A DNA stretch of 64,000 bases, taken from contig CDROCS010005920.1 of the NCBI GenBank assembly GCA_977020255.1, positions 1 through 64,000 of the forward strand, given 5' to 3'. The notes beneath the pieces are model-generated. The model did not search any database and was not told the origin of the DNA. It saw only the letters and a program-made list of their open reading frames with translations. The translations under genes and the position numbers were made by a program. Positions 1,087-48,304 of this stretch are shown here, one piece after another. Each line of letters starts with the position of its first letter. Position 1 is the stretch's first letter. The DNA comes from Obrimoposthia wandeli (lineage: Eukaryota).

Positions 1087-3176
1087 ATCGAGTAGGGTGA
1101 GGCGTTACCGCCTCATCCCTCTCACAGAACCGTACGTACGGACCTCGTATACGGCTCCTGTAGTCTTCTATTCCCTATCTTACAGGGAGCAAGATCCCTG
1201 TTTTCACTTCGTCTATCGCATATAAGCCAACTTCCTTGAACCATTGATTCGGCATGGCATAGTGGGATAAGGGACTCGCGGCATTTTTCCATGAGTCCAT
1301 CGTCATAAACTTGAATGGCGGCTTATAACCAAGCTGTTTCAATCTCCGATGCAATTTCATCGGCTTCTTCCACAGCTTTAATTGTAAACGCCTCGATCCG
1401 CCTTATCCATCCCGCCAATTGGGTTAGCTTTCGGCTTATATTCGCTATCTTAAAGTAGTTGACGGTTCCTCCAGAACAGGATTCAGTTCTTTAAGCACCA
1501 TGGCTAAGTTCTTTCCACTGTTTAGTCAGGTGAGCCGCTTTACTTTGGCTTCCGTGGTTGAACTTCTTTTCTTGTATCCGTGTAGAGAGTGTGACCTATC
1601 ACAACTTTGCCAAGAAATTTAACCCCTTCGTCACTGTGGAGCGATGAGTTTTGCGTTCATTCACTGTTAGCTTCAGTTGCTTTTCAAGATATGACTGGCG
1701 ACTTTTCTCGCATGCTCGGCGGCAGCTTGCGTTGCAGCACAAAGATCGAATATCATCCGCATATCGCACTATTCGGTGCTTACGCTTCATCATTTCTTGA
1801 TCAAACTCATCTAAGTATATATTGGCAAGTAACGGACTAATAACGCCACCTTGTGGGCTTCCTAGTACACTTTTTCTGCCAACCAAATCACCTATCATGA
1901 CCCCACTTTTCAGGAATTTATCTATCAGCCTTAGAGCTGCCGTCTGTGATACGTCGTTTGACTGATTGGATGATCAAGTCATGATCGAGCATATCAAAGC
2001 ATTTCGATAGATCATATCTACCACATGTCGACGCCCATACTGGCGTATAAACATCGTAGCTTTACTTATTGCCTGATGACGCTCCTACCCAGACGATATC
2101 CATAACTTGATGGATGAAAGGATGGATCAAAAATTGGTGTCATGATATTCGATAGACATTGTTGAACAATTCGATCTCGAACCGTTGGAATCCCAGTAAC
2201 CTAATGCCTCCATCGTCTTTAGCGATCTCAACACGTTTTACGGGGCGCGCTTGGTAGCGCTTTTCTTGCAGTTCAAGCAGTAACTGTTTCACGTTACTTT
2301 CAGATCTTGCGCAAAATCTTCCACACTGCCCGTCTACGCCGGGAGCGCCTTTGTTTTTCCACACTTTTCTGAATCCCTCATAGAGCTTGCATTGAAAGCA
2401 GGCGTCCATACAGGCTGTAATATATTCGCACGGTTACCGTCTCACACCACTTGCCATTCGCTACTTCCAGTCAGTTCGGTTTGTTTCGTCACCTAGTTAG
2501 GTGTTCTAGCATTTCGCAATCTGCCCAACCCGCCTTCTTGCCTCCAATGAGTAGGAATGACTACTCCCTATGTGCAGCTCCTAGCCATCGCGCCGATTTC
2601 ACTCTTTGCCATTGGGAGGATGCCCCGCCTAATCGGCAGCTTGTGCACCTGTTTTGGTCTTTCGCTTCTTTTCAGTGTATTAAAAAGATTACTTCCCCCT
2701 TCGCAACCCACATAACTTTTTGGCATATATTTAGCTCCAACAAACACGTTGCTGCTGGTCAGTTCAGTTTTATCCTCCACACCATTACTGGGTTTCACTG
2801 GCTGAACTTTACTCACTACTACGGGTTCATCTGCCACCTCACACCAACATAAGCCTTGAATCACTTCTTGTGCTTATGCTTCCAGCCTTATGCTGGAGTT
2901 GATGCCAGGCTTCCTCGGTTACTGCACCAGTCCCTGTTAGAGATCCCATCCCTTTCACGTGATTGGTTTGTCTGAGTATCGTGCTATTGCGGACACTTAC
3001 CCACCAATCCCGCCACATATGGGTTCACTTGCGTTATGTACCTCTAACTTCCTATGGCTTCCTTCAGACCTCATCGTTGGCCAATGACGCCCTTGCCATT
3101 CGGATTATCTTCCCCTCAGTCTGGGTGATTCTGCTTTCTTTCAAGCAGACGGGTTTGCTGGCTTCGCCGAGCAAAC
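1087..3176 (-). mobile_element. Group II intron (2090 bp) inserted antisense in IS66 tnpC
   Basis: Minus-strand 5' end GTTTGCTCGG; 3' DV GAGCCGTATACGAGGTCCGTACGTACGGTTC and DVI ending CTACTCGAT; removing 1087-3176 restores the frame W-L-S-K-Q-K-V-V-S-S-S-Q-L-G-K-A. Confidence 0.93.
1175..2409 (-). pseudogene. ltrA: Intron-encoded reverse transcriptase/maturase, frameshifted into at least 3 pieces
   Basis: KGAPGVDG, GSPQGGVISPLLANIYLDEFD, RYADD and a maturase-like C-terminus in ORFs 2140-2409, 1599-1898, 1175-1360. Confidence 0.9.
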
Positions 3177-12529: not shown

Positions 12530-13389
12530 GGGTCTGTTGCAACTAATCAGGTAAGGCAGAGCGACCCCAGTGATGGGCTCAATGATTACTGGTAAACAAC
12601 CTCAACATTGAAGAGGCGATTCATGAAGGCGGATCTCTCCCGCACAAGAGTTTTACGTTCATCATGACGTAACCAACAATCAAATTGCCCCTTGTTCAAC
12701 ATCCGTAATGATTCGAATCCTTGGATAGTTGACCAGGCTCGCTTTCGTATTTTAAACCCACCGGTAGCGACAACGAGTTTCTTTATTGGGGCGTGATCAG
12801 ACTCGATACCGTTATTGAGGTACTTCACTTGCCGCTGCTCGACATCCGCTCGCAGTCGTCCCTCCTTCTTCAAGCGAGCAATCGCATTGGCGTATGAGGA
12901 ATGTTTGTCGGTGTTTAATGTTTTAGGCTGATTGTCTACGTCGTAATATCTCAGGCAACGCCTAAGAAACTGATAAGCGGCTTCTTTATTACGTTTGTGG
13001 GAGAAATAGAAATCCAGCGTCTCGCCTTGTTTATTGATAGCACGGTAAAGGTAGTGCCATTTCCCCTTCACTTTTACGTAGGTTTCATCGAGCTGCCACG
13101 AAGAGTCTGTCCGGATAAATTGATGGCGACGTAACTTCTTACGTAATATCGGGGCATATTCAATGAACCAACGATAAATGGTCGAACGATTAACCGAAAT
13201 CCCCCGCTCTGCCAGCATGTCACTGAGGTTTGCGTAACTCATCGGTGTTGAACCATACCACCGAAGGCACCAAAAGATGATTTCAGGGGCGAAGTGTTTC
13301 CATTTGAATTCGGGGTTGGTCATCGAGTTGCTGGATTGGATGGGAAAGAAGGAATTCTGAGCCCAGACTGAATTATTTGCAACAGAGCC
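12530..13389 (-). mobile_element. IS6-family element (type C)
   Basis: Ends GGGTCTGTTGCAA / TTGCAACAGAGCC. Confidence 0.93.
12586..13323 (-). CDS. IS6-family transposase (likely start MTNPEFKWKHF)
   Basis: WQLDETYVKVKG, LNTDK, YLNNGIESDHAPIK. Confidence 0.92.
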   Translation of the reverse strand: MTNPEFKWKHFAPEIIFWCLRWYGSTPMSYANLSDMLAERGISVNRSTIYRWFIEYAPILRKKLRRHQFIRTDSSWQLDETYVKVKGKWHYLYRAINKQGETLDFYFSHKRNKEAAYQFLRRCLRYYDVDNQPKTLNTDKHSSYANAIARLKKEGRLRADVEQRQVKYLNNGIESDHAPIKKLVVATGGFKIRKRAWSTIQGFESLRMLNKGQFDCWLRHDERKTLVRERSAFMNRLFNVEVVYQ

Positions 13390-13513
13390 AATGGAATAAG
13401 CCATGTCCGCATGGATGAAGATAATAGACTTTAATATATATTAAATTTCATTAATTTTACACTGTATTATATATATAAACTATAATACACTGTTTTTTAT
13501 TGAGGGGTTTAAT

Positions 13514-28949: not shown

Positions 28950-31382
28950 ATGCAAAAAATATTATTAACATTGTTAATTACCTTGAGTTTGGTGTTATAT
29001 GGCTATGCTAATGACAGTGAAATGACAAAAAGTCCATCCGGTGAATCAGCTATTCAAAATAGTTTACAAGCCGAAACAAAAATCAAATTTGATTTAATTT
29101 CTGATCCATCAAACCCAATAGTTGTTACTCCAACATTCCTAGCCATGGATTCGGCTGATGGTACGCTAAGTACAGATGGGAACCTTAGTACTAGTCGTTA
29201 TTCAACTAATACAACTGACCCAGCGATAGCATTAGGAAAAACGGATGGGTGGAGTACCAGTCAACCTTTCGTAATTGAGTTTACAGGTAATGCTCTTGAT
29301 GAAAAAACAGTTGGAAATTGCTTTTTCTTAATTGAGTCACGAAATCCTACGAAAGAAAATTCTACCCAAGAAGCAATAAAGCTCTCCGCTGCTGATGGTG
29401 ATTTTATAGTATCAGCCTCAGGCAATAAACTGACTGTATTATTGATAAAGCCCCTTAAAGCTTCGACAAATTATATGTTTGCTATTACTGATGACTTAAA
29501 AGATGACCAAGGTAACAGTGTAGGCATGTCTAACTCTTATGCTTTACTCAAATCAACAAAAAAAACGCAATTAGATGCATTAGTACCTGTACAAGAAATT
29601 ATTCAGGCGACTGAAAAAGAGTTCAATACAATAGGTGTAGCAAGTAGTAATATTATTTTTACCAGTTGGTTTACTACACATTCTGTTGGCAACACACTTT
29701 ATGCGACCAAAATAGCAATCGCCCAAGGATTAGCTATTAATAATCTTTCTGCAATTTGGAAAGACAACGCAAACCCGAATGACGTAGACCTATCAAAAGC
29801 TTATAAGATCAACACCACAGGCTTAACTACAGAAGATTATGCAACAGCACTCGAGAATGACGTAAATTTTACTAAATATTTAGATGAGAAAACAGGTATA
29901 AAAAAATCAAAATTATTAACTATTTATTCAGAAAACCCAGATACAATTAATGTCACATCGGGGTCAGTTAATTTACCTTACTTTCTTGAGACAGGAACAG
30001 GTTGGGCAAGTACTTCTTTCAAATCTGCCGTACCAAGCTTGGTTAAACTATCCAGTATCCTTACTATCCCAGATAGTGCAGATGCACAAATTATAAGTTC
30101 ACAATTAATTAAAAAAGGCATTAATCCTGCGTTATTGGCAACAGACCAAGCTGAGAAATTGAAGTTGATTGGGCTCACACTCAATAAAGCTGACGGTACA
30201 ATGCTTGATGAAGAAAGACTTATGACTAAATATAGTCCAGTACCACAGATAAAATCTATGGAAACAGTGCCTTTCCTATTATTTACTCCAGCAATATCAG
30301 CCGCCCCATTACAAGTTGTTATTTATCAACATGGTATTACTTCAGTTAAAGAAAATAGTTATTTTTTTGCTAAAAATCTAGCAGCAAATGGTATTGCTGT
30401 TATTGCAATCGATAATCCACTTCATGGTTCACGTAGTCTTGATGATCAACGTTCAGCTAATGCTAATATCCAAGCTTATTTAAATCTTGGTAATTTAACT
30501 GTAGCCCGCGATAATATTCGTCAAAGTATTCTAGATATTATAGGGCTAAGAGTCGCATTAACTGTGTCTCAGAAAGCGGGAATATTTGTAGCTAATTCAG
30601 AGTTAAGTAAATTAGCACCCAATAGGCTATCTACTAGATCTAATACCTCATTTTTAGGCCACTCTCTAGGCGGTATTGTTGGTGCTCCAGCAGTTGTTGC
30701 TGCTAATCGAAATCTAGGTAGTGATGACGAAGATGTACTATTTAACTTTAAAAGTAGCGCTTTTGCTAATTCTGGTGGTGATATTGGCAATCTACTCTTT
30801 GGCTCTGAATCTTTTGGATCACTTATTAAGCACAACTTAATGCTAAATCGCATGGCTGAATATCAAGATTATGTAAAAACTGCTTGTACCAATATTTCAA
30901 CTGAAGGTTGGGAAAATAAGTGTTTTGATAATTTCTACAAAGTTGCTTCTATAACAACTAAAGCTGAAATGGATAGTACATTCGCTTCATTTATCTATGT
31001 TGCTCAATCGATTGTGGGTACCGTCGATCCAATTAATGTTTCTCAATTAAAAGATACCAGCGGTAAAGAGATCCTTGCAGATACACCAATGTATATGATG
31101 CAAGTTACAAACGATGATACGGTCCCTAATAAACTAGAAGCAGCGCCGTTAGCAGGTACAGAACCAATGGCAAAATTATTTGGTCTAACTTCGTTAGCTG
31201 AAACAACAACGGGGAACAAACATTTTGGCAAGTTCAATAAAGATGGAAATGGTACGCACAATACAATAGTGGCACCAGGAGCTGAAGACCTACTTACACA
31301 TAAAGAGATCCTATTGCAGCTAATTCAGTTCTATACACTAGATGGAACTATCGTTAATATAGATACTGCTTTTCTTGAGTAA
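28950..31382 (+). CDS. VolA/Pla-1-family lipase/lysophospholipase; lipobox Cys absent
   Basis: LGKTDGWSTSQP, QHGITS.KE, ID.PLHGSR, GHSLG nucleophile, D.TVPN, H near the C-terminus. Confidence 0.9.
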   Translation: MQKILLTLLITLSLVLYGYANDSEMTKSPSGESAIQNSLQAETKIKFDLISDPSNPIVVTPTFLAMDSADGTLSTDGNLSTSRYSTNTTDPAIALGKTDGWSTSQPFVIEFTGNALDEKTVGNCFFLIESRNPTKENSTQEAIKLSAADGDFIVSASGNKLTVLLIKPLKASTNYMFAITDDLKDDQGNSVGMSNSYALLKSTKKTQLDALVPVQEIIQATEKEFNTIGVASSNIIFTSWFTTHSVGNTLYATKIAIAQGLAINNLSAIWKDNANPNDVDLSKAYKINTTGLTTEDYATALENDVNFTKYLDEKTGIKKSKLLTIYSENPDTINVTSGSVNLPYFLETGTGWASTSFKSAVPSLVKLSSILTIPDSADAQIISSQLIKKGINPALLATDQAEKLKLIGLTLNKADGTMLDEERLMTKYSPVPQIKSMETVPFLLFTPAISAAPLQVVIYQHGITSVKENSYFFAKNLAANGIAVIAIDNPLHGSRSLDDQRSANANIQAYLNLGNLTVARDNIRQSILDIIGLRVALTVSQKAGIFVANSELSKLAPNRLSTRSNTSFLGHSLGGIVGAPAVVAANRNLGSDDEDVLFNFKSSAFANSGGDIGNLLFGSESFGSLIKHNLMLNRMAEYQDYVKTACTNISTEGWENKCFDNFYKVASITTKAEMDSTFASFIYVAQSIVGTVDPINVSQLKDTSGKEILADTPMYMMQVTNDDTVPNKLEAAPLAGTEPMAKLFGLTSLAETTTGNKHFGKFNKDGNGTHNTIVAPGAEDLLTHKEILLQLIQFYTLDGTIVNIDTAFLE

Positions 31383-31469: not shown

Positions 31470-31580
31470 GGGGATTGTTGCAAAAATGTAAATATCGGCT
31501 CAAAACTCCTTATTTCCCATCTAATCTAGCGATCCAATGATTAACCACTAATTTAAATGGAAACATTGAGCCCTATCCAA
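31470..31580 (+). mobile_element. Decayed IS6 type-C left end
   Basis: GGGATTGTTGCAAAAATG...TTTCCCATC...AAATGGAAACA matches the reverse complement of 13300-13389. Confidence 0.7.
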
Positions 31581-31926
31581 AAACATAACATCCTATCTCA
31601 CTAGTTGGTGGCTACAATATTACTAACGGTATTTCTAGCTCGAATACGTATAACTGCGGTATTGATGTCAGTGGTTATAATATGACAGCTACACTACAAT
31701 GGGAGGCCACTAAACCTTTACTTGTGGTTCTTGGTGATCGTTTAATTATGTGTTGAGTGACTCAACAGGTCCATTTGAACTGGATCTCACCCAATGTATT
31801 GAAGATGCACTACCTCATATTCTTGAACACCTTGAAGTAGCTAATAGCTACTCATTTAATTAAATTTGGTTATTGAAGGTCGGTTTATGAAAAACCAGTA
31901 TTTAACATACAATCTCATTAATAAAT

Positions 31927-32625
31927 ATGGGGATAATGATTATCTTCCATATTTTTAATCAACTTCCTGGTTTCTGGGGTACTAAAGATAAAGATTCTGT
32001 CTTTGTTTTTGCTAATTCAGAATATGGTAAAATAATTGGTGTTGATCATCATTTAGATTGTGTTGGGCGCACAGATTTTGATATGCCAAGCCCAACCATT
32101 GAATGGGCCCCATCATTTCAAGAACAAGATTTACAAGTAATAGATTCCGGAAAGTGTATGCGGGTTCTTGATATCCACCCTTATTCAGATGGGCATTGGC
32201 GTGCACATTTATTCACAAAGATACCGTGGAAAAATGAGGAAAACAAAATAGTTGGGACTATTTTTTCTGGTACCGAGCTAACAGATACCGTTACTCTAGA
32301 AGTTGGCCATTTGATTTGCCAAGCTGCCGGTTTTAGTAAAAAGACTCAGGTTTCATTTAGTTTAGATTTACATAATCAAAAAGTAGCCATTAATACTCGG
32401 GAATCTGAAGTGCTTTTTTTATTACTCTATGGAAAAAAAACTCAGTATATTGCAAGAGGGTTGAATATTTCAGTGAAAACAGTAGAGAACCATGTACTTC
32501 ATTTACGTGAGAAATTCAATGCTTACTCAAAAGCTGAATTAATCGATCTAGCATTAGATTTAGGTTTTGGATCGTATATACCAGAAAGCCTGTTAACAAA
32601 ACAATTATCTGTAATACTAAAATAA
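31927..32625 (+). CDS. vqmA: VqmA-like PAS + LuxR-HTH regulator (true start may be 31888 with a frameshift near 31945)
   Basis: QLPG.WG.KD..SVFV.AN, GRTDF.MPSPT, VLDIHPY.DG.W.AH.FTK.PW, RESEVLFLLLYGKK, IDLALD.GFGS.IP..LL.KQLSV all match V. cholerae VqmA as I recall it. Confidence 0.85.
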   Translation: MGIMIIFHIFNQLPGFWGTKDKDSVFVFANSEYGKIIGVDHHLDCVGRTDFDMPSPTIEWAPSFQEQDLQVIDSGKCMRVLDIHPYSDGHWRAHLFTKIPWKNEENKIVGTIFSGTELTDTVTLEVGHLICQAAGFSKKTQVSFSLDLHNQKVAINTRESEVLFLLLYGKKTQYIARGLNISVKTVENHVLHLREKFNAYSKAELIDLALDLGFGSYIPESLLTKQLSVILK

Positions 32626-32643
32626 TAAAGAGGCTAATATTTT

Positions 32644-33067
32644 ATCGGGATAGGGCGAGGCCTCGCAGCCTCGCTTCCCCCCACACCACCCAGCATACGG
32701 ATCCGTACTGGACGGTTCAAACAGTTAAGTGAGTGATAATGTCTGTAGCCCTATTGCAGCAAACCAAGAATTGGACAATGTTCGACTTAACGTCGGCGTA
32801 CAACTCATTCGCCAGTATTTCTTAGAGGATGCTTTGTATAGAGCCGCGGCTCTATACAAAGCACCTCTCGAAACCAGTTATTTTAATCGGCGCTTTGCCG
32901 TTTTCTGTTGAAATCACATCAAGTCACGAAGCCGTCTTCTTATCCATTTATCAAAACCTCTAAAGTAGATTGGTTTAACTAAAATACTGTCGCCACCCTC
33001 TCAGAGACGTGTTAATCTTTACATCAACGAGCAATCGTGTTTCTTTGTTAATTGTTTAACTTCCAAT
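32644..33067 (-). mobile_element. Class C-type group II intron 3' remnant (maturase tail, DV, DVI)
   Basis: DV GAACCGTCCAGTACGGATCCGTATGCTGGGTGGTG, end CCTATCCCGAT; decayed LRGW.QYF..DKWIRRRLR..KKYWRMS.TP.L...L.NSWF..IGL. Confidence 0.85.
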
Positions 33068-33984: not shown

Positions 33985-34713
33985 CTAAATGCCAACTTTT
34001 AATAAAGAGCTAATTTCTATAGGCTTACTATAAAGAAACCCTTGATGTAATCCTCTGTATCTCAGTAATTCATAATGTTGATATTCTGTTTCTACACCTT
34101 CAAATATAAAACGACTGATACCAAATTCAGATAGAGAAGTAATAAAGTTTGACATCTTGGAAGGACTATCTAGGTAATTATAGAGAACGCTTTTATCAAA
34201 TTTAACAATATCCCAATCTGCAAAACTTAACGTATTTCTTGGAATTTCGTCTGATAAAAAATCATCAAGCCATATTTTATGCCCTGATTTTTTTATGTCA
34301 CGAATTGTCTTGATTAATCGACATCGTTCATATTTTTCTGTTGGTATTGTAGTTAGTTCAAATGCAATTTTTTTCGTTAGACTTTTAATTGTATCATTAA
34401 TAAAAACATTGTCCGCCATCACTTCTGACGAGCAATTAATAGAAAATAATACTAATTTTTCATTGGAAATTCTATTTATTTCATTTACTTGATGTCGTAT
34501 TATCTCTTTTATTACATCGTTAGATATGTTTTTAAAAAACAACTCATTATCTATATGACCATTTTTAAATTTAGTAAGGAACTCAAATGCAAAAATTTTA
34601 TTTGTTCTAGGGTTAACTATTGGTTGAAGCATGAATTTGAAATATGATATTATATTTTTTTTGTCATCAATCATTTTGTAATGGTTGTTTTTTGTTAATG
34701 TTGTGTAGTGCAT
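33985..34713 (-). CDS. Stand-alone EAL-domain protein
   Basis: QPIV, EFL, SIN, FEL, WLDDF, VKFDKS, EGVET, QGFLYSKP. Confidence 0.9.
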   Translation of the reverse strand: MHYTTLTKNNHYKMIDDKKNIISYFKFMLQPIVNPRTNKIFAFEFLTKFKNGHIDNELFFKNISNDVIKEIIRHQVNEINRISNEKLVLFSINCSSEVMADNVFINDTIKSLTKKIAFELTTIPTEKYERCRLIKTIRDIKKSGHKIWLDDFLSDEIPRNTLSFADWDIVKFDKSVLYNYLDSPSKMSNFITSLSEFGISRFIFEGVETEYQHYELLRYRGLHQGFLYSKPIEISSLLKVGI

Positions 34714-34723
34714 AACTCACTTC

Positions 34724-35137
34724 TTATTCGTTCCAGACATCTATTGTCATAGATTCTAATTTATATTTAAGTAGCTGTGATTTTAAGTTTTTTATTTCCA
34801 ACTCATAAAGACGATTACAATCAATACGTTTTCTCTTATTTCCAATTGGTATAACAATTTGAGCATAAATCCCTATTTTATCTTTTCCTTTAATATTTCG
34901 ATTATAGTTGCGATTAGTCGATAATATTTGATCATGATCATTATCAATTTTCATTCCCATCAAGCCTGTCTGTATGTACATATCAGATGCAATAGTCGAT
35001 TCGCATGTTGTGCCATCACTTGTTGAAATACGATCATACCCAGAGGGGATTGTTGCACTTGGTATATCTAATGATTCCGCAAAACTAATACTATGATAAA
35101 AAAACATAAAGATTAACACGTAAAAAAAACATCTCAC
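34724..35137 (-). CDS. Secreted two-Cys protein with a C-terminal coiled coil
   Basis: Signal peptide; DRISTSDGTTCES, GIYAQIVIPIG, RIDCNRLYELEI. Confidence 0.8.
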   Translation of the reverse strand: MRCFFYVLIFMFFYHSISFAESLDIPSATIPSGYDRISTSDGTTCESTIASDMYIQTGLMGMKIDNDHDQILSTNRNYNRNIKGKDKIGIYAQIVIPIGNKRKRIDCNRLYELEIKNLKSQLLKYKLESMTIDVWNE

Positions 35138-35138
35138 T

Positions 35139-35522
35139 TTACTTATCCTTAATTAATTTTTTTATCTTATCTTTGGGATAATATAATTTTATCTTTGTGC
35201 ATATTCGCGTTCTCAAGTTACTTCCATTCTTAGGGATAGATACTGAACATAGCTTATACTCATTAAGCTTTGATGCTGGTATCCCATTGATAATGATTGA
35301 GTATTTTCGATAATCGCCTACTCCTACTTTGATATTACTATCAATAATTTTACCATCGAGCTCTATATCAAAATATGTTGTTGTTTTATCTTGACTTCCA
35401 ATTTCAATTTTAATTTTTTGGCTACCAGTCAGACTTATTGCTTTAAAATTTATTGGTGATTGTGAGTGAGAAAAAACTATTGAACTAAAAAGCAAGCTAC
35501 ATAATGTAATTATTATCTTCAT
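35139..35522 (-). CDS. Secreted two-Cys beta-rich protein (chaperone-like?)
   Basis: Signal peptide, HSQSP, KLCSVS...RTRICTKI; ATGA overlap with the upstream gene. Confidence 0.78.
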   Translation of the reverse strand: MKIIITLCSLLFSSIVFSHSQSPINFKAISLTGSQKIKIEIGSQDKTTTYFDIELDGKIIDSNIKVGVGDYRKYSIIINGIPASKLNEYKLCSVSIPKNGSNLRTRICTKIKLYYPKDKIKKLIKDK

Positions 35523-36415
35523 GGATTACATGTTACTGTTGTTTTAATCTGGTATTTACCTGATTTTAATTGATTTTTTTGTAATGATACAAATGGGCTC
35601 ATTGTAATTACTCCAGAGCTATTGATTGAATAACTACTATTGACAAGTACACGATGATTACTACTTAAATCTTCATGATGTGCTCTAATAGAACTCCTAC
35701 CTAATGGTGATATTTTTTTATTCATAACGTAATAATATTCAAGATTATTTTCGAATTCTTTTTTTATTGATCTTGAAAACCTATTCCCTTTATGATCTTT
35801 ACCTGATACTTTACTATCGAATGATAAACTTTTAGCAGAGTCAGTATCGTAAATAAATGTTGCATTATTTGTATTAGTGTAATCGTTGAATGATATCCCA
35901 CCTCTAGCATCAATAACAGATAATCGACAATAATTTGATTGAGTAACTTCGATAAAATTAATAGATAATTCATCAGTACCATTTACTTTTAATCTAAGAC
36001 TTTCTGCATGTTGACTTTTCATAATAAAAAAAATAGTTTTAGTTTTATCATCGTCACCATTTAGGAAAAAATCAACTTCAAAAGTTTCACCAGCATATAC
36101 CCTCCGAATAGGTTCCTCCCCTTCGGGTTGATATAAAAATATTGAAGAATCTCCTGCTGAAAGGACATTGATTTTAAATGTTTTAGATTTTATTTTTTTA
36201 TATGAAATAGTTAAAAAAGCACCTTTCATTAAGAATGTATTTTCATTAAATGTAAATTGTTTAGGAATTATATGATTATTTGTACTGTATTTTATAGTGT
36301 AATTTGAATTGTATATTTCTTTTTGCTCAGAAGACGATGTTATCGTATGACTTTGAGCTAAAAAGGAACATGACAAACTATATACACTGAAGCTCAGCCG
36401 TAACAATGTATTCAT
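35519..36415 (-). CDS. Secreted two-domain adhesin/pilin-like protein (298 aa)
   Basis: Signal-like N-terminus; C-terminal domain bounded by SNYCRL and SGKYQIKTTVTCNP. Confidence 0.72.
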   Translation of the reverse strand: MNTLLRLSFSVYSLSCSFLAQSHTITSSSEQKEIYNSNYTIKYSTNNHIIPKQFTFNENTFLMKGAFLTISYKKIKSKTFKINVLSAGDSSIFLYQPEGEEPIRRVYAGETFEVDFFLNGDDDKTKTIFFIMKSQHAESLRLKVNGTDELSINFIEVTQSNYCRLSVIDARGGISFNDYTNTNNATFIYDTDSAKSLSFDSKVSGKDHKGNRFSRSIKKEFENNLEYYYVMNKKISPLGRSSIRAHHEDLSSNHRVLVNSSYSINSSGVITMSPFVSLQKNQLKSGKYQIKTTVTCNP

Positions 36416-36902
36416 ATTTACCTTTTGATAAATCTATTCTATCAACTTGTGGAGCACTAAGAATAACTTTTATCTTATCTGAAGTATTAATAGAATTAAC
36501 ATATCCACTTTGTTTTGATGAACTAAGATCAGAAACTGTTGTATCTATAGCTATATCATAACTTGAATTAGCTGTTTGTGTTGATATTTTAAGTGCCATT
36601 TTTTTATCACCAAATGAGCCTTGGTCAACGCCATGCCTCGGACTTAATGAGGAATTACTTTCTAACTCAAAACTAATATCAGCATCATTCGTGGCACTAT
36701 TCGTATTAAAGGCAAGAATATGATATTTATCAGCATCTGAATCGCCTTTAAATGAAATACCTTTATTTATACCAATGGTCTCAGCGGTCATCTCGCAAAT
36801 TTCATCAACAGTTTCACTAAATCGCATACTAACAGCTTTGCTTTGAAGTGGTAAGAAACACATACTCATGATAACACTAATTTTCATCCAATTTAAAAAC
36901 AT
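36378..36902 (-). CDS. Secreted pilin-like subunit (174 aa)
   Basis: Signal peptide ...SKA; VSMRFSETVDEIC...GKYEYIVTAELQCI, a fimbrial-subunit-like pattern. Confidence 0.72.
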   Translation of the reverse strand: MFLNWMKISVIMSMCFLPLQSKAVSMRFSETVDEICEMTAETIGINKGISFKGDSDADKYHILAFNTNSATNDADISFELESNSSLSPRHGVDQGSFGDKKMALKISTQTANSSYDIAIDTTVSDLSSSKQSGYVNSINTSDKIKVILSAPQVDRIDLSKGKYEYIVTAELQCI

Positions 36903-46417: not shown

Positions 46418-48304
46418 TTAAACAACAAAAGTAAATACTTTTTCATTCAATTTTATAGCTTGGTTACTTAGCACTTCTGCTTGACTACGAGCTGCAACAG
46501 CACCTTCTACAAGCTGATCTGTTACGTCTTTAATTGTGGTTGTATTTAATGTAATTTCACTTGTTACATGCGTTTGTTCTTCTGCTGCAGTAGCTATTTG
46601 TGTCGCCATATCACTAATTAAAGCCACTGAGTCGTTAATCTGCTCTAATGCTACTGTTGCTTGGTCTGCGTCGTCTACCGAACATTGCGCAAGCTGAGAG
46701 CTTGTTTCCATCAAGGCAACCGCTTTCGATGTTGTCTGTTGTAATGTCGCAATCATACTCTGAATTTCTTCAGTCGATGTATGAGTACGTTGAGATAACA
46801 CGCGTACTTCATCAGCCACAACAGCAAAACCTCGCCCTTGTTCACCCGCTCTTGCTGCTTCAATTGCAGCATTCAATGCCAATAAGTTTGTCTGTTCTGC
46901 AATACCTTGAATAGTAGATAAGATACTGTTGATGTTCTGAGCATGATCATTCAACTCACTAATCACAGTCGTTGCCTGATTCACTTCTTCTGCTAGATTG
47001 TTGATAGACACTCGGCTTTGTACAACTAACTCACGACCACTGTTTGTATACTCTGTCGAAACTTGTGCTGCACGCGCTGTTTGCTCTGCATGAGACGCAA
47101 TTTCTTGTGTAGCTGATGCCATTTCCGTTACCGCGGTGGCAACCATGCTGATTTCATCTTGCTGACGACTTAACTCATCAGCCGACTTATTCGCTCGGAA
47201 TTCACTTTCTGCCGAAGCCTGACTCAGCTCAACACCTTGGCTGCGAATATGACCAATAAGACCCTGTAAACTTGCTGTAAACTGGTTAAAATTACGGGCT
47301 AATTCACCGACCTCATCGTTAGAATCAATATTAATACGTTGAGTTAAATCACCACCGCCTTGTGCAATGACAGCCAGTGCTTTAGATACTTGCTGTAACG
47401 GTTTAAATAAATACACACAAAATAGGTTAAACAGAAACGCACAAATAACCACAACCAATAGCGTCATGAATATCTGTTCATATAATGAGCTGTAAAGAGG
47501 CGCGGCAACAGAATTATAATCAATAACAATAACTGTACTTAGACTTGTACCTTGAATTGGCTTAACAAACACATAGCTTTCATTACCTGTAATATTTTCT
47601 TTTTCAACTAGGCCTTCTCGCGCTAAACGTTTTAGCATTGAATAGGTTAAACCACGGTCTTGTGCACTAACAGATTGATTCAATAAAGACGTATCTGCGT
47701 GCGCAAAAAAATTACCTTCATCATTTACGATAAACATGTAGCCTTCACCAGGCAATACCACATCATCAAGTTGCTTGATGATATCTGACATTTCGACATC
47801 AGCACCTAGAACGGTCTGCTGCCCAAAAATAGAAATTGCTTTCCCCATAGAAACAACATTTGACCCTGTGGCCGCTGCAACGGTCGGATTTTCTATCGTC
47901 ACTTTACCATTAAGGTTAATCGCATTTTGATACCATTGCCATTGGCGAGGATCATTATCACCTGATGGTAAGATAACGTTATTTGCATTCACTTGTGTAC
48001 CATCAGAAAAAGCTAAAAAAACATTATCAAACCCTGCTGAATCGCGAACCTGCTGAAGATGTTGACCAAGCGTGTCTTGTGAAATATTCACAGGTATAGC
48101 GGAAAGTACTGTTCCTTTCGACTCTAACCAATTAGAAACATAATTATTGTACGAAGAAGCTGTACCATTAAGTTGCTTATTAATGTCACTATCTAAACGA
48201 CCTAGCGACGATAAAAAAGAAAAAGCAGTTACAAGTAAACCGCCGATAATGATTGCAATACTTGCAGAAAGAGCCAACTTTATTCTGAGTGTCATATTAA
48301 ACAT
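46418..48304 (-). CDS. Methyl-accepting chemotaxis protein (dCache-HAMP-MCP)
   Basis: 2 TM, YDPR.W.WY-like Cache motif (NDPRQWQWY), [34 protein letters not shown]. Confidence 0.95.

What the first reader, a model, noticed from the sequence alone, without database searches (positions are those of the whole stretch)
31888..32625. Accessory VqmA-like DPO quorum-sensing receptor lacking the inhibitory Cys63
Seen, against V. cholerae VqmA recalled from memory: the DPO-pocket equivalents F67, Q70, D85, F99 and K101 are all present. C48 and C134 are kept, C63 is Trp and C22 is Thr. Established: VqmA binds DPO, a C48-C63 bond limits activity under oxygen, a C134-C134 bond enhances it, and phage VP882 carries its own VqmA. 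Inference: a mobile-element receptor eavesdropping on DPO without the oxygen brake. No obvious vqmR or GGGG-N-CCCC box is upstream, so targets are unknown; the nearby secreted/EAL operon and lipase are candidates. An upstream ATG (31888) with an RBS joins the ORF if one C near 31945 is removed.
Basis: partly seen in the sequence, partly recalled or inferred. Interest (0 to 1): 0.7.

Follow-up and report, generated by a model that had tools for sequence, protein, structure and literature searches.

The report
Orphan second VqmA on mobile DNA
A marine Photobacterium carries a second, stand-alone copy of the quorum-sensing receptor gene vqmA on accessory DNA, which likely still senses the DPO signal and would act on the host's own chromosomal vqmR promoter, but its missing "oxygen-brake" cysteine is ordinary because many normal Photobacterium copies lack it too.

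Summary
In detail: a VqmA-family PAS-LuxR gene with the whole DPO pocket, C63W and C22T. It is not the sole vqmA: the same assembly has a canonical copy (83% identical, VqmA box, pdxH). A 95%-identical orphan lies on a conjugative-element contig of P. frigidiphilum. The out-of-frame 5' end is no sequencing error: it recurs there and in two metagenome contigs. The gene body is still more conserved than its flanks (12 of 529 nonsynonymous sites vs 29 of 375 flank bases, p=1.4e-4), so a protein was likely made after the rearrangement, probably from ATG 31936. C63 loss is common: 19 of 66 canonical Photobacterium copies lack it, including P. frigidiphilum's own. Neighbouring genes are unlikely targets: they are not shared between the two copies and no good box lies on either contig. 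Best reading: an orphan paralog under relaxed selection acting in trans on host vqmR; it may be silent here. Second copies are rare (4 of 225 vqmA-bearing genomes).

The parts
31936..32625 (+). Orphan vqmA paralog, likely coding sequence (229 aa from ATG 31936; in-frame alternative ATG 31927 gives 232 aa). Homology to chromosomal vqmA starts at 31946 and runs to the stop.
   Evidence: SD-like GGGG/GGAG just before ATG 31936 in both alleles (-5.5 and -6.4 kcal/mol), none before 31927; the P. frigidiphilum protein on record starts at the equivalent ATG (P0001, 229 aa)
31887..31958 (+). 23-codon upstream ORF with an SD-like site, out of frame with vqmA, stop 20 nt past ATG 31936; possible translational-coupling leader
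   Evidence: 23 codons in both alleles; 6 changes in 61 bases between alleles, no sign of protein constraint
31923..31954 (.). Inverted repeat across the junction; its RNA hairpin would bury the SD-like site and hold ATG 31936 at the loop; centre 31932-31944 is a Fur-box-like core with poor flanks
   Evidence: fold z = -2.6 and -2.7 in the two alleles
31574..31861 (+). 3' remnant of an unknown signal-peptide-like gene (134 aa, intact in P. frigidiphilum); here 5'-truncated, with a stop and a 1-base deletion
   Evidence: no other homolog found
31476..31573 (.). Repeated insertion-sequence end that cuts the module on the left, removing the upstream gene's start and presumably its promoter
   Evidence: matches the 5' end of the transposase gene at 12586-13404 and three other places on the contig
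32645..32720 (-). Remnant resembling a group II intron 3' end; right edge of the shared module
   Evidence: 75% column identity to the Rfam Intron_gpII hit at 1087-1159; no Rfam hit of its own at E<=0.1

Best explanation
This is a second, orphan copy of the Photobacterium vqmA gene on accessory DNA, without vqmR or a VqmA box, that is likely translated from ATG 31936 into a 229-residue receptor predicted to bind DPO and that would act in trans on the host's chromosomal vqmR promoter as an extra dose of VqmA. Shown: paralog status, origin from the P. frigidiphilum-group vqmA, a replaced 5' end shared by several alleles, an intact pocket, purifying selection on the body, and no good box on either carrier contig. 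Inferred: start codon, expression (probably low, perhaps coupled to the 23-codon upstream ORF that would open the junction hairpin), DPO binding, and the target. C63W would remove the C48-C63 bond, but so does C63Y in many ordinary chromosomal copies.
For: Canonical copy with box and pdxH in the same assembly, and only one such locus; same pairing in P. frigidiphilum. Both orphans form one long branch at the P. frigidiphilum group. dN/dS against chromosomal copies is 0.115-0.147 at dS 0.63-0.74. Between the two alleles, which share the 5' rearrangement: body 22 of 675 bases differ vs 29 of 375 in the flanks (p=0.002); synonymous 10 of 146 matches the flank rate (p=0.85); nonsynonymous 12 of 529 is far lower (p=1.4e-4). 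All ten pocket residues tested by Huang et al. are unchanged. The 229-aa form begins at residue 7, the start of the dimer crossover helix 7-15, and the model keeps a helix there. K185 and R195 equivalents are kept. The pattern for the box matched 2 places in the whole assembly, one being the host vqmR promoter.
Against: No expression data. dN/dS between alleles (0.29) is above that of chromosomal pairs (0.03-0.14), and with transition bias the 12:10 split alone is only p=0.01-0.09 against neutrality. The window allele has 6 nonsynonymous to 2 synonymous polarised changes, including His at the K193 equivalent, where Ala abolished DNA binding in V. cholerae VqmA. Well-conserved W132 (154 of 156) and A125 are changed in both alleles. 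In this genome the upstream gene is broken and cut by an IS end, and no sigma-70-like promoter points at the gene. The SD-like site is only 3 bases from the ATG and is predicted to be base-paired. That the two contigs lie in one cell is inferred, not shown.
Confidence: 0.5

Rival explanations
1. The copy was functional on a mobile element but is now a silent, decaying passenger, at least in this genome.
For: Upstream gene pseudogenised and cut by an IS end; intron-like remnant right after the stop. Raised dN/dS of 0.29, which by simple arithmetic fits dN/dS 0.1 for about 80% of the time since the alleles split and neutrality since. 6N:2S on the window branch. Weak, buried start site. The contig is full of transposase fragments. 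V. parahaemolyticus 882 shows a vqmA silenced by promoter loss (Duddy 2023, section 5).
Against: No stop or indel in 225 codons of either complete allele. The window's HTH variants recur in contigs of two other studies (X3: 222 bases identical; X5: 226 bases, 1 difference). His at that HTH position occurs in 7 of 119 other homologs, two with the same ENHVLHLR motif.
Confidence: 0.3
2. The protein is made but works as a brake or with shifted specificity: it would bind DPO and pair with host VqmA into less active heterodimers, as TrlR does with TraR.
For: Pocket fully kept while linker, N-terminal helix and HTH positions drift; no target of its own; precedent in TrlR (PMC13043044 passages).
Against: The DNA-binding domain is complete. 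The P. frigidiphilum allele keeps P, K, Y, R, R at the five HTH positions checked, like most canonical copies. Nothing here tests heterodimers.
Confidence: 0.1
3. The full product starts at ATG 31887 and enters the vqmA frame by a +1 ribosomal slip at TTT-TAA (31953-31958).
For: ATG 31887 has a well-spaced SD-like site in both alleles; the upstream ORF ends in a run of five T followed by the stop, so re-pairing in the +1 frame is possible; its length is the same in both alleles. The shifty-stop mechanism is recalled, not from a call.
Against: The upstream codons change at the flank rate and mostly nonsynonymously. They show no significant homology to the chromosomal N-terminus (p 0.17-0.92). 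An in-frame start exists, so no recoding is needed.
Confidence: 0.05
4. One reading: a mobile-element DPO sensor selected to lack the oxygen brake and controlling neighbouring cargo genes.
For: Mobile context in P. frigidiphilum; all three orphan lineages have lost at least one conserved cysteine, and 3 of 5 orphan copies lack the C48-C63 pair.
Against: 19 of 66 canonical copies lack the pair too and 2 of 5 orphans keep it; neighbours differ completely between the two carriers; no good box on 84 kb and 93 kb of carrier DNA.
Confidence: 0.05

Closest known systems
VqmA of Vibrio cholerae and the chromosomal vqmR-vqmA locus of Vibrionaceae
   Same: PAS + LuxR-type HTH, all tested DPO-pocket residues, C48 and C134; 83% identical to the host's own chromosomal copy.
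   Different: No vqmR, no box, no pdxH synteny; first ten codons replaced; C22T, C63W, W132L, a new Cys at 80; sits on accessory DNA as a second copy.
VqmA-phage of VP882 and related linear plasmid phages
   Same: Extra VqmA on a mobile replicon, lacking C63 (Phe in 7DWM); the phage protein also activates host vqmR in trans (Duddy 2021 abstract).
   Different: Far more distant in sequence (E 2e-38 vs 2e-85). No qtip-like partner or own promoter box was seen. The carrier is a conjugative-element contig or an IS-rich island, not a phage; no relative found in viral contigs. Keeps C48 and C134, which the phage protein lacks.
TrlR / dominant-negative LuxR paralogs
   Same: A paralog of a quorum-sensing receptor on accessory DNA with its ligand domain intact (PMC13043044 passages).
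   Different: TrlR lacks the DNA-binding domain; this gene keeps a complete HTH.
vqmA of V. parahaemolyticus strain 882
   Same: vqmA without vqmR, promoter region lost.
   Different: That is the sole chromosomal copy and is not expressed; this is an extra copy with a long record of purifying selection.

Membership tests
VqmA receptors | N-terminal PAS domain plus C-terminal LuxR-type HTH, homologous to VqmA | tested here: met
VqmA receptors | DPO-binding residues F67, F99, K101 | tested here: met
   residues from Huang et al. section 6
VqmA receptors | DNA-binding residues K185, K193, R195 | tested here: inconclusive
   K185 and R195 equivalents kept; K193 equivalent is His in the window (1 of 71 Photobacterium copies, 7 of 119 other homologs) and Arg in the P. 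frigidiphilum allele
VqmA receptors | Binds DPO and activates PvqmR | not testable with these tools
   needs a bench assay
Canonical vqmR-vqmA locus | VqmA box and vqmR upstream, pdxH downstream | tested here: not met
   box in 66 of 66 canonical copies (pdxH in 65 of 66), in 0 of 5 orphans; no vqmR-region match
Canonical vqmR-vqmA locus | Four redox cysteines C22, C48, C63, C134 | tested here: not met
   T22, C48, W63, C134; but 19 of 66 canonical copies fail this too
Phage VqmA-Qtip module | Linear plasmid-phage context with an adjacent small antirepressor gene and its promoter | tested here: not met
   no phage genes among the ORFs read on the contig; no viral-contig relative; qtip itself was not searched by sequence
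Fur-regulated genes | 19-bp Fur box with AT-rich flanks near a promoter | tested here: inconclusive
   perfect 13-base core (1 in the window, 0.02 expected) but 13 of 18 to the Vibrio consensus; of 16 loci examined, intergenic sites scored 16-17 and sites inside genes 12-14; flank changes weaken binding (PMC7536154 passages)

The most novel reading that the evidence does not exclude
Conjugative and island DNA in Photobacterium has repeatedly (at least three times) captured vqmA without its sRNA, and this lineage rebuilt the 5' end into a leader-ORF-plus-hairpin switch, so that a non-phage mobile element tunes host DPO quorum sensing in trans, boosting or poisoning the host receptor.
Probability: 0.15. 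Interest if true: 0.65.

Novelty: new variant of a known kind. Interest (0 to 1): 0.32.

Why it matters
Extra VqmA receptors are described only for VP882-like phages in the papers seen here. A survey of 5,460 Vibrio genomes reported one strain with vqmA but no vqmR. If active, these orphans show a second route by which mobile DNA can reach into DPO signalling. The side result may matter more to specialists: the C48-C63 oxygen switch, described as strictly conserved in vibrios (PMC7387800), is absent from 19 of 66 canonical Photobacterium receptors, so it is not a general feature of the family. If the orphan is silent, it is an ordinary decaying duplicate.

Tried and rejected
One-base sequencing error: rejected. 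An 8-base deletion from an ancestral in-frame N-terminus (my first idea): no significant homology upstream of 31946 (p 0.17-0.92). Fur control: core is perfect but flanks are not, and the six changes between alleles avoiding the 13-mer is expected by chance (about 0.2, my arithmetic); kept only as a weak lead. 'HTH is broken': weakened, since the same His residues occur in other natural homologs. Second Photobacterium genome in the assembly as the owner of this gene: one pdxH locus and one full-length close rpoD match argue against it. Searches that found nothing more: plasmid collection gave only 3 chromosome-sized records; metagenome contigs by protein, 0 of 70 stretches, and by a 19-base pattern, 74 loci, none with vqmA; viral contigs, 0 of 4 stretches; the 5' module in 401 Vibrionaceae genomes, only G001 plus one 22-base chance hit; upstream ORF homologs, only itself, the G005 hit being antisense to a dehydrogenase. 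No RNA holder was listed. Run X8 gave no laid contig. Rfam gave no VqmR hit even at the canonical locus, so vqmR was tracked by box and synteny. The protein tree is the quick one; the careful search did not finish. No complex prediction was run, as a pass would follow from likeness to solved VqmA dimers. Earlier scan findings: none.

Full report
1. What is there. The window is the first 64 kb of an 84-kb bacterial contig (G000:C5920) inside a 1.35-Gb assembly that holds several bacteria. ORF 31927-32625 encodes a PAS_4 + GerE protein that matches V. cholerae VqmA at E about 2e-85. F67, Q70, D85, F99, K101, C48 and C134 are present, with T22 and W63. All ten pocket residues mutated by Huang et al. 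(10.1101/2019.12.19.881847; passages and section 6 read) are unchanged. The upstream ATG is at 31887 and opens a 23-codon ORF in another frame.

2. It is a second copy. The same assembly holds a copy on contig C998, 83% identical, with a VqmA box at -361 and pdxH downstream. Only one pdxH locus and one full-length close rpoD match were found, so one Photobacterium likely owns both contigs; this is inferred. The C998 protein is 95-98% identical to those of P. frigidiphilum and three unnamed relatives. P. frigidiphilum JCM 12947 also has both a canonical gene and a 95%-identical orphan. Its orphan lies on a 93-kb contig with TraD, a PFL_4706-type conjugative ATPase, integrating-element proteins, ParA/ParB-like genes, BREX and toxin-antitoxin genes (18 chosen ORFs scanned). 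Apart from repeats, the two carriers share only a 1,072-base module, 31574-32644. In the window it is bounded by an IS end and an intron-like remnant; no conjugation genes were recognised among the ORFs read on C5920.

3. How common. Of 67 Photobacterium species genomes, 65 have a full canonical vqmA and 4 have a second close copy. Of 401 Vibrionaceae genomes, 225 have vqmA and only those same 4 have two. With the window's two copies this gives 71 genes: 66 with a box, 5 without. The 5 orphans fall in three well-separated lineages on long branches: window plus G001, G033, and G030 plus G061 (quick tree). The window lineage attaches at the P. frigidiphilum group; its exact place inside that group is unsupported.

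4. The cysteine claim. Among the 66 canonical copies 47 have C48 and C63, 18 have Y63 and 1 has S63; P. frigidiphilum's own chromosomal gene is Y63. Among 119 other database homologs 77 have both. Phage VqmA has Phe there. So an aromatic residue at 63 is a routine variant. Mashruwala and Bassler (PMC7387800, passages) call the four cysteines strictly conserved in other vibrios; their supplementary Fig. S3, which I did not see, would show which species were aligned. They report about 2- to 3-fold effects of the C48-C63 bond on apo-VqmA. C22 is the better marker: kept in 66 of 66 canonical copies and lost in 4 of 5 orphans; its role is not established in the passages read.

5. The 5' end. Homology to the chromosomal gene begins at 31946. 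The P. frigidiphilum allele has the same layout base for base in register. A cold-seep metagenome contig (X4; 31574-32103, 36 differences, one gap far upstream) and a sediment contig (X9; 31870-32023, 10 differences, no gap, depth 3.8) span the junction unchanged in length. Of 7 different runs laid, 3 spanned it (X1, X4, X9); X1 may be the window's source. ATG 31936 has an SD-like site in both alleles, only 3 bases away; ATG 31927 has none. A 229-aa product would start at residue 7, where the dimer crossover helix begins; the AlphaFold model of the 232-aa form (mean pLDDT 84) keeps a helix at residues 2-12. An inverted repeat spans the junction (z about -2.6); its left arm is the reverse complement of the first homologous bases, which fits either a fold-back origin of the junction or a coupling hairpin opened by ribosomes on the 23-codon ORF. 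Neither is shown.

6. Is it alive? Against five chromosomal copies dN/dS is 0.115-0.147 at dS 0.63-0.74: long purifying selection. Between the two complete alleles the body differs at 22 of 675 bases, the flanks at 29 of 375. Synonymous sites match the flank rate, nonsynonymous sites are about 3.5-fold lower (p=1.4e-4). Because both alleles share the rearranged start, the body stayed under selection after it arose. Against this: dN/dS is 0.29, higher than in chromosomal pairs (0.03-0.14); the internal N:S test is p=0.01-0.09 depending on transition bias; the flank yardstick includes a gene that is dead in the window; the window branch has 6 nonsynonymous to 2 synonymous polarised changes; and its upstream gene and presumed promoter are destroyed. 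Three window changes lie in the HTH region, one at the K193 equivalent. They recur in contigs of runs X3 and X5, and His at that place occurs in 7 of 119 homologs, so they need not be lesions.

7. Target. The box (Duddy 2021, 10.1101/2021.04.15.439952; abstract and sections 6-7 read) has no match above chance in the window. With up to 3 mismatches there were 2 poor hits inside genes on C5920 and none on the P. frigidiphilum contig. In the whole assembly the exact pattern matched 2 places, against 7 for the reversed control; one is the host vqmR promoter. With a near-canonical recognition helix, the host promoter is the most likely site of action, as for phage VqmA. This step is inferred.

8. 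Literature. Searches for vqmA with Photobacterium (5 papers, listing only), with second copy/paralog/orphan terms and with Vibrionaceae conservation showed no report of non-phage second copies; the library lacks most subscription papers. Duddy 2023 (10.1101/2023.06.05.543668; abstract and section 5) found one vqmR-less vqmA among 5,460 Vibrio genomes. PMC12802170 (passages) does not mention Photobacterium. Also seen: PMC7536154 and PMC13043044 (passages) and the abstract of 10.1101/2025.08.22.671807.

9. Verdict. A real, rare orphan vqmA paralog on accessory DNA: a new variant of a known kind. The headline trait (no Cys63) is ordinary, the neighbours are unlikely targets, and the frame break is genuine but probably bypassed by an internal start. 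Activity is more likely than not for the lineage and uncertain for this allele. Interest 0.32.

Noticed in passing
66 canonical Photobacterium vqmA loci (L002, L018, L027-L055, L057, L059, L061, L143-L174): C63 is absent from 19 of 66 canonical receptors, and F67 is Tyr in 6 of them (L159-L164); the oxygen switch is not family-wide.
   Followed up: partly
L056:6147-6905 (G033) and L058:5808-6515 (G030; identical protein in G061): Two other orphan vqmA lineages with altered pockets (F99V, F99C). One faces a GGDEF-like gene on a chromosomal stretch near pyruvate kinase and rpoD, the other lies beside capsule-export-like genes (neighbour names from reading the sequences, not from a family scan).
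   Followed up: partly
window 31932-31944: Perfect Fur-box-like core centred on the likely start codon, one of 6 such sites in the P. frigidiphilum genome, but with poor flanks.
   Followed up: partly
window 46418-48304 and 28950-31382: The contig carries diverged duplicates of resident genes: a chemoreceptor 90% identical to a copy on C2105, and a lipase 68% identical over 727 bases to one on C3840. It looks like a collector of genes from sister lineages.
   Followed up: partly
window 33985-36902 (-): Five-gene low-GC cluster (28-30% GC): four proteins without a Pfam match, several signal-peptide-like, plus a stand-alone EAL domain.
   Followed up: no
window 1087-1159, 2926-3087 and 32645-32720: Group II intron pieces (Rfam hits for the first two; the third by alignment).
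   Followed up: partly
L009:5533-5937: 134-aa signal-peptide-like protein upstream of the orphan with no homolog in the collections searched.
   Followed up: yes
G000: The 1.35-Gb assembly contains several bacterial genomes (9 tdh matches over the cut-off, 10 rpoD-like matches).
   Followed up: no
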